The position numbers and the translations under genes are program-made. The notes under the pieces are model-generated. The model saw only the letters and a program-made list of their open reading frames with translations, searched no databases and was not told where the DNA came from. From the NCBI RefSeq assembly GCF_013122565.1, contig NZ_CP053258.1: a stretch of DNA of 64,000 bases; one strand, 5' to 3'. Position 1 is the first letter of the stretch; the number at the start of each line of letters is the position of its first letter. This stretch comes from Escherichia coli. GTDB taxonomy: Bacteria; Pseudomonadota; Gammaproteobacteria; Enterobacterales; Enterobacteriaceae. Shown piece by piece: positions 2,842-44,500 of the stretch.

Positions 2842-2942
2842 TGCCGGAGGCGGCGTGAACGCCTTATCCGGCCTACAAAATCGTGCTAATTCAAAATGTT
2901 GCATTATATGCTGTAGGCCTGATAAGCGCAGCGCATCAGGCA
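2842..2942. repeat. REP/BIME palindromic elements between yaeF and nlpE
   Basis: Two inverted REP-type units, TGCCGGAGGCGGCGTGAACGCCTTATCCGGCCTAC and GTAGGCCTGATAAGCGCAGCGCATCAGGCA. Confidence 0.8.
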
Positions 2943-3696: not shown

Positions 3697-4119
3697 TTAT
3701 TCCCGACCGCTGCGCACTTTGCCGCGCATCGCCTTTACGCTTGATTTTTGTGCTTTCGATGCCAGCCTGCGCTCTTTCGATGCACGGGTGGGCCGCGTGG
3801 GTCGTCGGGCTTTTTGTTCTGTTGTTAATTCTTTAATCACAGCCACCAGCCGGGCCAGAGCGGCTTCGCGGTTCAGTTCCTGACTGCGGTATTCCTGTGC
3901 CTTAATGACAATCACTCCGTCACTGCTGATCAAATGATGGCTGGCGGCGAGCAGACGCTCTTTGTAATACTCTGGCAGGCTGGACGCCCGAATGTCAAAA
4001 CGCAGATGAATAGCCGTTGAGGTCTTATTAACATGCTGCCCGCCCGCGCCCTGCGCACGAATGGCGGTGATCTCAAGCTCACCATCGGGAATAGCAACAT
4101 GTCGGGAAATCACAATCAT
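3697..4119 (-). CDS. arfB: Peptidyl-tRNA hydrolase ArfB (YaeJ), ribosome rescue factor
   Basis: 140 aa with GGQ motif ([12 protein letters not shown]) and basic C-terminal tail. Confidence 0.9.
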
Positions 4120-4661: not shown

Positions 4662-4826
4662 AAGAAAACTCCTTTCGAATCAGGAGGCCATTGTAACGGA
4701 ATACGTGCAGTTGCGGCGCTGATATTGCAGAAATGAGTGTGGTATAGTCACCTTGCGAAACAGAGTTTATCTTCGTAGGCTTAGACTTGCATCCACGGTT
4801 AAGTCAGAGTGCTGACAGGAGGGCAT

Positions 4827-5027
4827 GTGGAAAAATATTGTGAGTTAATACGCAAGCGGTACGCGGAAATCGCCAGCGGAGACTTAGGATACGTTCCGGA
4901 CGCGCTGGGCTGCGTTTTGAAAGTGCTGAATGAAATGGCTGCCGACGACGCCCTTTCTGAGGCTGTCAGGGAAAAAGCAGCATACGCTGCGGCAAACTTA
5001 CTGGTGAGCGATTATGTCAATGAATGA
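4827..5027 (+). CDS. yaeP: Small protein YaeP (UPF0253)
   Basis: 66 aa from in-frame GTG (V7 of track ORF) giving [25 protein letters not shown]...; overlaps rof. Confidence 0.7.
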
Positions 5028-5274
5028 TACGTATCAACCAATCAATTGTGATGATTACGATAATCTTGAGCTCGCCTGCCAGCATCATTTAATGCTGACA
5101 CTTGAGCTGAAAGATGGCGAAAAATTGCAGGCAAAAGCCAGTGATTTAGTCTCCCGCAAAAATGTGGAGTATCTGGTCGTCGAGGCCGCTGGCGAAACCC
5201 GTGAGCTACGTCTGGATAAAATTACCAGCTTTAGCCACCCGGAAATCGGTACGGTGGTGGTGAGCGAGTCCTGA
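5014..5274 (+). CDS. rof: Rho-binding anti-terminator protein Rof (YaeO)
   Basis: 86-aa [28 protein letters not shown]; synteny next to tilS. Confidence 0.8.
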
Positions 5275-5283
5275 TTGACTTTC

Positions 5284-5316
5284 GCCGGATGCGACGTTTG
5301 ATGCGTCTTATCCGGC
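5284..5316. repeat. REP-like palindrome between rof and tilS
   Basis: GCCGGATGCGACGtttgATGCGTCTTATCCGGC, in a convergent intergenic region. Confidence 0.65.
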
Positions 5317-5322
5317 TTTCAC

Positions 5323-6621
5323 TTAACTAAGCGTTTTCTGCCAGACAAAACTTACGCCATTCTCACCTTCAGCCACACCTTCTTGCGTCACAAATACCCC
5401 TGCCGCCGCAATCAGCGTTTCGCCATAAAACAGCAGTGGCGTGGTGTCACGTAGCCACGGCGGCACGCCCAGCTCTTGCCAGATTTTCTTTAACTTGCGC
5501 CCACCGTTGCGCCCGACAATATGCAGCAATCCTGGCGCTTTGAAACGCACGCTGACCGTTTCATCTGCACGCGGAGGGCGAATATCGCCTCCCGCTGTAA
5601 GCTGTACACTTCCCAGCCCCGCCGGTAATTCCAGCGGTTGTAGCCACGTCTGCCACGGCACAATGGTTTCGCTTTGCCCGGTGACGGATTTAATCCACCA
5701 CAGTTGCGACTGATAGCGGCGGATTTCAAACGCGCCCAAGCGTAAACAGGGGGAGGCATCTTCCCGCGCCAGCGCCACTTCCTGCCAGATCCGCACCAGC
5801 GCGTCGCGGGAAGGCATCGGTGCATTCTGCTCTGCCAGCCAGCGGCGGATAATTGCCGCGCGACGGGCATCACTCATCGCCAGCATTGGCGCAATCTGCA
5901 GCGTCCCCTGCGGCGTTTGGCAGTGCGCTAAATCATCTGCCAGCAATTCATCCAGCAGGCTCTCTTGTTCAGCACAAAGTGCGGCGCTGCGGGCCGTTGC
6001 TTCGGCAAAATGCGGCCAACGCTGCTGCAATAACGGCACTACGCGCAGGCGCAGGAAGTTACGATCGTATGAGTCGTCCTGATTACTTTCGTCTTCAATC
6101 CAGCGTAAACCATGCGCCAATGCCCACTGCTCCAGTTCCCCCCGCGTGCGGGCGAGCAACGGGCGGATAAGCCGTGTTCCGGCAAACTCCGAAACTTCCC
6201 CCATAGCCGAAAGCCCGGCAGGACCGCTACCGCGTTTTAGCGCCAGCAGAAAGGTTTCACATTGATCGTCGAGATGTTGCGCGGTGACCAGCACTTCACC
6301 GGGCAACAAGGTGCGGGCAAATGCCTGATAACGTGCCTGCCGCGCCTGGGCCTCAATCCCCAGCCCCTCTTGCGCAAGTTGTACGCGTTCGACCACCAGC
6401 GGCACCTGCCATTGTTGGCAGATGTTTTCGCAATGCATAACCCAGGCGTCGGCATTGGCACTTAAACCGTGATGCACATGAATAGCGCGCAGAGCAACGC
6501 CCGGATTTTCCGCCCGCCACTGCACCAACTGATGCAGCAGAACGGTGGAGTCAAGCCCGCCGCTAAAGGCCACCAGAATCTGGCGTGAGGTGAGAAGTTG
6601 TCTATTGAGCGTGAGTGTCAT
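5323..6621 (-). CDS. tilS: tRNA(Ile)-lysidine synthetase
   Basis: 432 aa with PP-loop SGGxDS motif ([13 protein letters not shown]). Confidence 0.9.

Positions 6622-44380: not shown

Positions 44381-44500
<120 letters not shown>

What the first reader, a model, noticed from the sequence alone, without database searches (positions are those of the whole stretch)
4827..5274. Overlapping small genes yaeP and rof, with a GTG start for yaeP
Two small ORFs (66 and 86 aa) overlap by 14 nt in different frames. yaeP has no in-frame ATG and must start at GTG 4827. The pair is followed by a REP palindrome at 5284-5316 and faces tilS convergently. Overlap of this kind suggests translational coupling, and Rof is a Rho modulator, so expression of this pair may be tightly controlled.
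Basis: partly seen in the sequence, partly recalled or inferred. Interest (0 to 1): 0.2.

Follow-up and report, generated by a model that had tools for sequence, protein, structure and literature searches.

The report
Known overlapping yaeP–rof gene pair
This is the already annotated and published E. coli yaeP–rof two-gene operon (a small protein of unknown function followed by the Rho inhibitor Rof), so the finding is ordinary; the only open detail is which of two neighbouring ATGs starts Rof.

Summary
Window 4827-5027 (+) is yaeP (66 aa, GTG start, Pfam UPF0253, crystal structure 5H1N). Window 5014/5020-5274 (+) is rof (Rho-binding antiterminator, Pfam ROF, structures 1SG5, 8W8D, 8PTM). A REP palindrome lies at 5284-5316 and tilS converges from 5323. 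The locus is in 5424 of 5426 complete E. coli genomes.

The overlap, its conservation in Enterobacteriaceae, the REP elements and the coupling idea are already published (Said et al. 2024; Morita et al. 2022). The ATGTG context of the yaeP start is also published (Kohl et al. 2022).

Corrections:
- yaeP does have an in-frame ATG (4935), but it is internal and not conserved.
- The overlap is 14 nt only if rof starts at ATG 5014, as NCBI's automatic annotation (PGAP) has it. Curated K-12 uses ATG 5020 (84 aa, 8 nt).

My comparison of 80 Enterobacteriaceae species plus distant relatives favours ATG 5014:
- It is never lost, while ATG 5020 is lost in three lineages.
- The 21 nt at 4998-5018, including an SD-like GGTGA, are invariant at every synonymous site.

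Translational coupling remains plausible but untested. Novelty: already known. Interest is low.

The parts
4719..4748 (+). Putative yaeP-rof promoter: -35 CTGATA (4719-4724), 18-nt spacer, extended -10 TG (4740-4741) and TATAGT (4743-4748). The inferred transcription start is near 4755.
   Evidence: Consensus scan, 9 of 12 matches with TG. TGnTATAGT is conserved in all 78 unique Enterobacteriaceae sequences and in the distant Enterobacterales L084, L089 and L090. The start site is inferred, not measured.
4749..4783 (+). Conserved non-coding leader block of unknown function. It has two near-invariant boxes, CACCTTGC[G/T]AAAC (4749-4761) and ATCTTCGTAGGCTTA (4769-4783).
   Evidence: At least 90% column identity across genera, while sequence upstream of about 4718 cannot be aligned. 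Single copy and unannotated in E. coli genomes. No Rfam hit.
4803..4816 (+). Small hairpin GTCAG-AGTG-CTGAC immediately 5' of the yaeP Shine-Dalgarno sequence.
   Evidence: The stem is kept and the loop varies in most of 44 species. Changes are mainly to G-U pairs, with one compensatory case. It is part of the minimum-free-energy fold. Its function is not shown.
4817..4822 (+). yaeP Shine-Dalgarno sequence AGGAGG, 4 nt upstream of GTG 4827.
   Evidence: Duplex with the 16S 3' end is -10.8 kcal/mol, in the top 1% of windows. GGAGG is invariant in 81 species. Listed by Kohl et al. as AGGAGG with aligned spacing 12.
4825..4848 (+). Out-of-frame ATG overlapping the yaeP GTG (ATGTG). It opens a 7-codon ORF (MWKNIVS) that ends at TAA 4846-4848.
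   Evidence: Read from the sequence. The ATGTG context is present in 74 of 81 species but absent in distant relatives. Kohl et al. 2022, Table 2, predict no start ambiguity for yaeP.
4827..5027 (+). yaeP coding sequence: GTG start, 66 aa, TGA stop. The product is a three-helix protein of unknown function (UPF0253).
4998..5018 (+). Invariant 21-nt block inside the 3' end of yaeP. I read it as the rof translation initiation region: SD-like GGTGA (5003-5007), a 6-nt spacer, and ATG 5014.
   Evidence: Third-codon-position entropy is 0 for yaeP codons 58-64 in 78 unique sequences, against a mean of 0.89 bits elsewhere in yaeP (2 of 56 positions at zero). The nucleotide string is kept in L090/L091 although the yaeP frame over it has shifted.
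5014..5274 (+). rof coding sequence (Rho-binding antiterminator): 86 aa from ATG 5014, with an alternative in-frame start at ATG 5020 (84 aa). The stop TGA is at 5272-5274.
   Evidence: In-frame TGA 5005 excludes any start further upstream. Start-codon conservation is, and INRI-seq peaks at both ATGs.
5284..5316 (.). REP palindrome between the convergent rof and tilS genes.
   Evidence: Escherichia, Salmonella and Citrobacter carry REP-type repeats at this position, where most other genera have a GC-rich hairpin followed by a T-run. Said et al. draw it as an 'insulating' REP.
5323..6621 (-). tilS, the convergent neighbour (context only).

Best explanation
This is the chromosomal yaeP-rof bicistronic operon of E. 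coli.

**Transcription (inferred).** It starts from a conserved extended -10 promoter (TGgTATAGT, 4740-4748). It ends in the 48-nt spacer before convergent tilS. E. coli carries a REP hairpin in that spacer, where most other genera carry an intrinsic terminator.

**yaeP.** It is translated from GUG 4827, which a strong AGGAGG places close to the optimal spacing. The overlapping out-of-frame AUG 4825 sits too close to the SD to compete.

**rof.** Its translation initiation region lies entirely inside the last 30 nt of yaeP: a weak SD-like GGUGA (5003-5007), AUG 5014, a second in-frame AUG 5020, then the yaeP stop UGA 5025-5027.

**My best reading.**
- AUG 5014 is the conserved, principal start, giving 86 aa and a 14-nt overlap.
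- The site can recruit ribosomes on its own, but only weakly.
- Ribosomes finishing yaeP, 5-11 nt downstream, probably raise rof translation by keeping the site open and by re-initiating. This would tie the amount of the toxic Rho inhibitor to translation of yaeP.

**Shown:** the gene identities, the positions of the starts and stop, the conservation pattern, and weak independent initiation in vitro.

**Inferred:** the transcription start, the choice between the two AUGs in vivo, and the coupling itself.
For: **Identity**
- 5424 of 5426 complete E. coli genomes hold the stretch, annotated yaeP and rof.
- Pfam PF06786 and PF07073 match. PDB entries 5H1N, 1SG5, 8W8D and 8PTM match.

**yaeP start**
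- In-frame stop at 4800. AGGAGG pairs with the 16S 3' end at -10.8 kcal/mol.
- The start codon is GTG in 79 of 81 species and ATG at the same codon in the other 2.
- Kohl et al. list yaeP as an atGTG gene at 94.5 ppm, with no predicted ambiguity.

**rof start**
- Only ATG 5014 and ATG 5020 are possible, because TGA 5005 closes the frame upstream.
- ATG 5014 is kept in 81 of 81 species and in four distant loci.
- ATG 5020 is ACG in L014 and L022. It is absent in L090/L091, where Rof reads MSISNDEYQP.
- Positions 4998-5018 are invariant at seven consecutive synonymous sites. The background is 0.89-1.08 bits, with only 3 of 137 third positions invariant.
- In L090/L091 a 4-nt insertion shifts the yaeP frame, yet ACTGGTGAGCGcTcATGTCAAT is retained. 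There YaeP is 39% identical to E. coli YaeP and Rof is 63% identical.

**Independent initiation**
- INRI-seq gives footprint peaks of 8-13 in 5 of 5 replicates at ATG 5020, and up to 7.9 in 4 of 5 replicates at the -6 ATG. The fragment lacks the yaeP start.

**Overlap conservation**
- All 81 species and the distant Enterobacterales keep an overlap.
- Said et al. report the same for Enterobacteriaceae.
Against: - The curated K-12 record and UniProt-style numbering use ATG 5020 (84 aa). Said et al. state that rof lacks an SD and overlaps yaeP by 8 nt.
- GGUGA is a weak SD. Its duplex energy of -7.6 kcal/mol is only in the top 7% of random windows. Its aligned spacing to ATG 5014 is longer than optimal by my count.
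- INRI-seq peaks 6 nt apart may not be resolved from each other, and the peak at the annotated ATG was slightly higher.
- In vivo Ribo-RET signal was 0 at both ATGs, so there is no in-vivo start mapping.
- The invariant block could serve something other than initiation.
- No held text reports that stopping yaeP translation lowers Rof.
- The species compared are related, so the counts are not independent events.
Confidence: 0.6

Rival explanations
1. rof starts at the second ATG (5020, 84 aa, 8-nt ATGAATGA overlap) and has no Shine-Dalgarno sequence. It is made only by ribosomes that terminate at the yaeP stop and re-initiate 5 nt upstream. This is the picture in the curated K-12 annotation and in Said et al. 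2024.
For: The K-12 MG1655 record gives rof at 213678-213932, an 8-nt overlap. Said et al. say rof lacks an SD. The 84-aa form is active and was used for the cryo-EM structure 8W8D. The INRI-seq peak at this ATG reached 8-13 in 5 of 5 replicates, slightly above the -6 site. A short distance to the stop favours re-initiation (general knowledge of termination-reinitiation).
Against: This ATG is lost in L014 and L022 (ACG) and in L090/L091, while ATG 5014 is never lost. A pure re-initiation model does not explain invariance of 16 nt upstream of ATG 5014 at synonymous sites. INRI-seq shows initiation without any yaeP translation.
Confidence: 0.2
2. Both ATGs are used, giving 86-aa and 84-aa Rof proteoforms in a ratio that may depend on whether the ribosome arrives de novo or from yaeP.
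For: INRI-seq called both sites. Both ATGs are conserved in 79 of 81 species. Said et al. note that two alternative starts are possible and built both constructs.
Against: The two peaks are 6 nt apart and may be one unresolved signal. The second ATG is dispensable in three lineages. No proteoform data were found.
Confidence: 0.15
3. The overlap is incidental compaction. The two genes are translated independently, with no functional coupling and no special control.
For: Short overlaps in these phases are common in bacterial operons (general knowledge). The rof site initiates on its own in vitro. YaeP overexpression had no effect in the readthrough assay in which Rof was active. In Vibrio-like genomes yaeP and rof are unlinked.
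Against: An overlap is kept in every Enterobacterales locus examined, including one where yaeP has shifted frame and diverged to 39% identity yet still ends inside rof. Independent initiation is weak: peaks of 8-13 against 56-83 for nlpE and above 500 for yaeR in the same assay.
Confidence: 0.05

Closest known systems
E. coli K-12 yaeP (b4406) - rof (b0189) operon, as described by Said et al. 2024 (PMC11018626) and Morita et al. 2022 (PMC9765468)
   Same: It is the same locus: same genes, same order (nlpE-arfB-yaeQ divergent from yaeP-rof, tilS convergent), same REP elements and the same overlap. The junction sequence is identical to the K-12 oligo used for INRI-seq.
   Different: Nothing biological. 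My comparison favours the former and finds a conserved SD-like GGTGA where Said et al. say there is no SD.
yaeQ-arfB pair in the same locus (4-nt ATGA overlap)
   Same: A small upstream gene of unknown function overlaps a downstream stress-related gene that is said to lack an SD. The coordinates are 4116-4119 in this window.
   Different: The overlap is 4 nt with a single start codon, on the opposite strand. I did not analyse its conservation.
Classical translationally coupled gene pairs, where a ribosome terminating at the upstream stop re-initiates at a nearby start
   Same: Same strand, the stop of gene 1 lies within or next to the start of gene 2, and the downstream initiation region is weak.
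   Different: Dependence of rof translation on yaeP translation has not been shown. Here there are two candidate starts 5 and 11 nt upstream of the stop, and measurable independent initiation in vitro.
atGTG / AUGUG start sites catalogued by Kohl et al. 2022 (PMC9841429)
   Same: yaeP is listed there by name. Its GUG start overlaps an out-of-frame AUG, and an AGGAGG places the GUG nearer the optimal spacing.
   Different: None. Kohl et al. predict no ambiguity for yaeP, and I found no evidence for use of the 7-codon out-of-frame ORF.

Membership tests
Rof / YaeO (Pfam PF07073, Rho-binding antiterminator) | Sequence match to the family model above its curated threshold | tested here: met
   99.7 bits against a cut-off of 27.6, E = 1e-28, covering model positions 1-80 of 80.
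Rof / YaeO (Pfam PF07073, Rho-binding antiterminator) | Identity to the experimentally characterised E. coli protein, including Rho-contact residues N9, C10, D11, Y13, D14 (84-aa numbering) | tested here: met
   Full-length alignment to the 86-residue chain 1SG5 (E = 1.2e-53) and alignment of residues 3-86 to the 84-residue chain 8W8D (E = 2.2e-52). The translation reads [15 protein letters not shown]. The contact residues are named in PMC11018607.
Rof / YaeO (Pfam PF07073, Rho-binding antiterminator) | Binds Rho and inhibits Rho-dependent termination | not testable with these tools
   Taken from the literature for the identical protein (PMC11018626, PMC11018607).
YaeP / UPF0253 (Pfam PF06786) | Sequence match to the family model above its curated threshold, full length | tested here: met
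   116.3 bits against a cut-off of 27, model positions 1-65 of 65. Matches PDB 5H1N over residues 1-66, E = 1.4e-38. The predicted three-helix fold (pLDDT 90) matches only 5H1N, TM-score 0.92.
REP (repetitive extragenic palindromic) element | Imperfect palindrome of about 35 nt with the core GCCGGATG...CATCCGGC-type arms, located outside genes | tested here: met
   Arms 5284-5296 and 5304-5316, 85% complementary, inside the 48-nt rof-tilS spacer. Folds at -23.2 kcal/mol, z = -5.5.
REP (repetitive extragenic palindromic) element | Member of a dispersed repeat family in the same genome | tested here: met
   Two further copies of the REP consensus lie in the window, at 2843-2872 and 44385-44414, against 0 expected. 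Weak hits to the REP-derived Rfam family naRNA4. REP-type repeats occupy the same spacer in Salmonella and Citrobacter.
Translationally coupled gene pair | Same strand and transcript, with the stop of the upstream gene overlapping or abutting the downstream start | tested here: met
   TGA 5025-5027 lies 5 and 11 nt downstream of the two rof ATGs. The overlap is kept in 81 of 81 species and in distant Enterobacterales. A single transcript is inferred, not measured.
Translationally coupled gene pair | Downstream translation depends on translation of the upstream gene | not testable with these tools
   A relevant construct (yaeP delta-ATG + rof_HA) is listed in Said et al.'s source data, without a stated outcome. 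INRI-seq shows weak initiation without yaeP translation.

The most novel reading that the evidence does not exclude
The Rho-inhibitor operon may carry two cis elements that I did not find described in the papers I read.

1. A near-invariant leader just downstream of the -10 element, made of the boxes CACCTTGC[G/T]AAAC (4749-4761) and ATCTTCGTAGGCTTA (4769-4783).
2. An invariant 21-nt rof initiation region inside yaeP (4998-5018).

Together they would set when and how much Rof is made. The true Rof protein would be the 86-aa form, not the curated 84-aa form. If so, yaeP would act at least partly as a leader cistron for a toxic regulator.
Probability: 0.3. Interest if true: 0.4.

Novelty: already known. 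Interest (0 to 1): 0.12.

Why it matters
Rof switches off Rho, an essential termination factor, and is toxic when overproduced. How its synthesis is limited is therefore a real question, and Said et al. say the triggers are unknown. The finding as written adds nothing to the record: the genes, the overlap, its conservation, the REP and the coupling hypothesis are all in print. What could matter in a small way:
- **The Rof start.** It affects residue numbering and constructs, and an N-terminal His-tag abolishes Rof toxicity (PMC11018626).
- **The conserved elements.** The leader and the intragenic initiation region are concrete targets for testing how rof is regulated.

Tried and rejected
- **Hairpin over the rof start.** The minimum-free-energy fold pairs 5002-5015 with 5024-5040. 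Across 46 species there are no compensatory changes, and the variable 3'-arm positions are mostly unpaired. The region's z-score is only -1.05. I do not claim it.
- **Leader inverted repeat.** TAAAC-AGA-GTTTA as an operator or RNA hairpin: the 3' half varies without compensation. Rejected as a conserved palindrome.
- **Long-range pairing in the leader.** CCUU (4751-4754) with the yaeP SD was predicted by RNAalifold. It is invariant and so cannot be tested, and it probably lies upstream of the transcription start. Not claimed.
- **Leader peptide.** The 20-codon TTG ORF at 4753-4815 has no SD, and indels between genera break its frame. Rejected.
- **YaeP-Rof fusion by frameshifting.** rof is in the +1 frame, but there is no slippery sequence or suitably placed SD at GAA-TGA. 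Rejected on sequence grounds only.
- **Alternative yaeP starts.** GTG 4809 has no SD (-4.6 kcal/mol) and lies in a variable region. INRI-seq called a CTG -15 site (4812) with a peak of 71.8. It is unexplained and is more likely an assignment effect next to the strong SD.
- **In-vivo start evidence.** I searched the supplements of an N-terminomics paper and a combined ribosome-profiling/proteomics paper on N-terminal proteoforms and the Ribo-RET preprint. There is no entry for rof or yaeP.
- **YaeP function from its fold.** The only structural match is its own crystal structure.
- **Alignment query.** The first related-loci query failed because the alignment was too diverse. A narrower alignment worked, but the 80 loci kept are all Enterobacteriaceae.

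Full report
**1. What is in the sequence**

- **yaeP.** Window 4827-5027 (+) is a 201-nt ORF of 66 codons plus TGA, beginning with GTG.
- **rof.** Window 5014-5274 (+) is an 86-codon ORF in the +1 frame. It shares 14 nt with yaeP.
- **rof starts.** In the rof frame a TGA at 5005 closes the frame. Only ATG 5014 and ATG 5020 can serve as starts.
- **yaeP starts.** In the yaeP frame the nearest upstream stop is TAA 4800. The start-like codons after it are GTG 4809, CTG 4812 and GTG 4827. The only in-frame ATG is internal, at 4935.
- **REP.** A 33-nt palindrome at 5284-5316 folds at -23.2 kcal/mol (z = -5.5) and has the REP core. Two more REP copies lie elsewhere in the window.
- **tilS.** It runs 5323-6621 on the minus strand.

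**2. Identity**

- The 661-nt stretch is present at 95% identity or more in 5424 of 5426 complete E. coli genomes. It is annotated there as yaeP (YaeP family protein) and rof (Rho-binding antiterminator).
- Pfam gives PF06786 (UPF0253) and PF07073 (ROF), both far above threshold.
- Both proteins have solved structures: YaeP as 5H1N; Rof as 1SG5, 8W8D and 8PTM-8PTP.
- An AlphaFold model of YaeP is a three-helix bundle (pLDDT 90). It matches only 5H1N, so the fold gives no functional lead.

**3. What is already published**

- **Said et al. 2024 (PMC11018626).** They draw this locus. They state that rof overlaps yaeP, that the overlap is always present in Enterobacteriaceae, and that the genes are unlinked in Vibrio cholerae. 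They show REP elements bracketing the locus. They note that two alternative Rof starts (84 and 86 residues) are possible. Their source data list constructs with yaeP, yaeP lacking its start codon, and 84-aa and 86-aa Rof. The held text gives no outcome for these.
- **Morita et al. 2022 (PMC9765468).** They tested yaeP and rof together because the overlap suggested that yaeP modulates rof expression. Rof, not YaeP, caused the phenotype.
- **Kohl et al. 2022 (PMC9841429).** They list yaeP among genes whose GUG start sits in an AUGUG motif: 94.5 ppm protein, SD AGGAGG, no predicted ambiguity.

The finding is therefore already known in all its parts.

**4. The yaeP start**

- AGGAGG (4817-4822) lies 4 nt before GTG 4827 and pairs with the 16S 3' end at -10.8 kcal/mol. 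GTG 4809 has nothing comparable, at -4.6 kcal/mol.
- In 80 Enterobacteriaceae species plus the window, the homologous codon is GTG in 79 and ATG in 2 (Phytobacter massiliensis and Enterobacter sp. Bisph1). This fixes the start position.
- The ATGTG context is present in 74 of 81 species. It is absent in more distant relatives, which still use GTG.
- The out-of-frame ATG 4825 opens only a 7-codon ORF.

**5. The rof start and the junction**

Two annotations coexist. NCBI's automatic annotation pipeline (PGAP) gives 86 aa and a 14-nt overlap. Curated K-12 gives 84 aa and 8 nt. The comparative data favour the first ATG:

- **Start codon retention.** ATG 5014 is kept in 81 of 81 species. ATG 5020 is ACG in two species, L014 and L022.
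- **Synonymous-site invariance.** I used 78 unique sequences. Third-codon-position entropy averages 0.89 bits in yaeP codons 2-57 and 1.08 bits in rof codons 6-86. Only 3 of those 137 positions are invariant. Entropy is zero at every position of yaeP codons 58-64, window 4998-5018. That block ends with ATG 5014 and contains GGTGA (5003-5007), which is complementary to UCACC near the 16S 3' end.
- **Distant relatives.** More distant Enterobacterales keep GGTGAG-N5-ATG (L084, L089).
- **A shifted frame.** In L090/L091 a 4-nt insertion shifts the yaeP frame across this block. The nucleotide string is still retained, yaeP ends at a new TAA inside rof, and only the first ATG remains. In that lineage YaeP is 39% identical to E. 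coli YaeP while Rof is 63% identical.

Where yaeP is not followed by rof (Vibrio-like L085), the corresponding codons differ and carry no GGTGA.

**Caveats.**
- GGTGA is a weak SD, with a duplex energy of -7.6 kcal/mol, only in the top 7% of windows.
- The species are related, so counts are not independent events.
- Cell-free INRI-seq called both ATGs with similar small peaks. In vivo Ribo-RET showed none.

**6. Coupling**

The geometry fits termination-reinitiation, with the stop 5 and 11 nt downstream of the two starts, and the overlap is universally conserved. Dependence is not demonstrated in any text I could read. The INRI-seq fragment carried only about 25 nt upstream of rof and no yaeP start. 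It still gave reproducible initiation, though at roughly one-sixth of the nlpE level and below 2% of yaeR. I therefore read rof as having a weak site of its own that yaeP translation probably boosts.

A predicted hairpin over the site has no covariation support.

**7. Surroundings**

- **Promoter.** The extended -10 (TGgTATAGT, 4740-4748) with -35 CTGATA is conserved even in distant Enterobacterales.
- **Leader.** Downstream of the -10, two near-invariant boxes (4749-4761 and 4769-4783) stand out against an otherwise unalignable intergenic region. They are single-copy and unannotated in E. coli and have no Rfam match.
- **Hairpin.** A small hairpin at 4803-4816 abuts the SD.
- **3' end.** After rof, most genera have a GC-rich hairpin plus a T-run. 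Escherichia, Salmonella and Citrobacter have REP-type palindromes in its place. This suggests the REP takes over the 3'-end role.

**8. Verdict**

This is a correctly recognised, fully annotated and published gene pair. Coupling remains inferred.

The only increments from this work are comparative evidence that ATG 5014 (86 aa) is the conserved start with a conserved upstream element, and the notice of a conserved leader.

Novelty: already known. Interest: 0.12.

Noticed in passing
window 4749-4783 (with promoter 4719-4748): A strongly conserved non-coding leader lies just downstream of the yaeP -10 element. It has two near-invariant boxes, CACCTTGC[G/T]AAAC and ATCTTCGTAGGCTTA, across Enterobacteriaceae genera. 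The rest of the yaeQ-yaeP intergenic region cannot be aligned. It has no Rfam match, is single copy and is unannotated. Its function is unknown.
   Followed up: partly
window 5275-5322 compared with L005-L082 downstream of rof: In most genera the rof-tilS spacer holds a GC-rich hairpin followed by a T-run (ACGGGCAGC...GCTGCCCGTTTT, terminator-like). In Escherichia, Salmonella and Citrobacter that position holds REP-type palindromes instead.
   Followed up: partly
L090 / L091, 1501-1949: In this lineage a 4-nt insertion shifts the yaeP reading frame near its 3' end. YaeP has diverged to 39% identity while Rof stays at 63%. yaeQ is called at only 91 aa in L090, against 186 aa in L091. The upstream ORF still overlaps rof by 10 nt and the rof initiation string is kept. 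This may be a decaying genome that still keeps an upstream ORF translated.
   Followed up: partly
L085 2001-2398 (also L087, L088): In a Vibrio-like genome yaeP is not next to rof. Instead it abuts a 63-aa DUF4250 gene through a TAATG stop/start overlap. Two short metagenome contigs also have a small ORF about 55 nt downstream of yaeP (63 codons in L088; cut by the contig end in L087).
   Followed up: no
window 4812 (K-12 214139): INRI-seq (PMC9825163, Table S3) calls a non-annotated in-frame CTG start 15 nt upstream of the yaeP GTG, with a peak of 71.8 in 5 of 5 replicates. It has no SD and sits in the 3' arm of the hairpin next to the strong SD. It is possibly a peak-assignment effect.
   Followed up: no
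window 4116-4119 (minus strand): yaeQ and arfB overlap by 4 nt (ATGA), a second overlapping pair in the same locus. Said et al. also note it.
   Followed up: no
window 2843-2872 and about 2912-2940: A REP copy and an inverted partner (GCCTGATAAGCGCAGCGCATCAGGC) lie downstream of nlpE. Together they look like a clustered REP element at the other edge of the five-gene locus.
   Followed up: no
window 4836-4844: Synonymous sites of yaeP codons 4-6 (TAT TGT GAG) are nearly invariant across 78 sequences, and so is the third position of codon 17 (AGC). The first three lie just after the start and within the 7-codon out-of-frame ORF. The cause was not examined.
   Followed up: no
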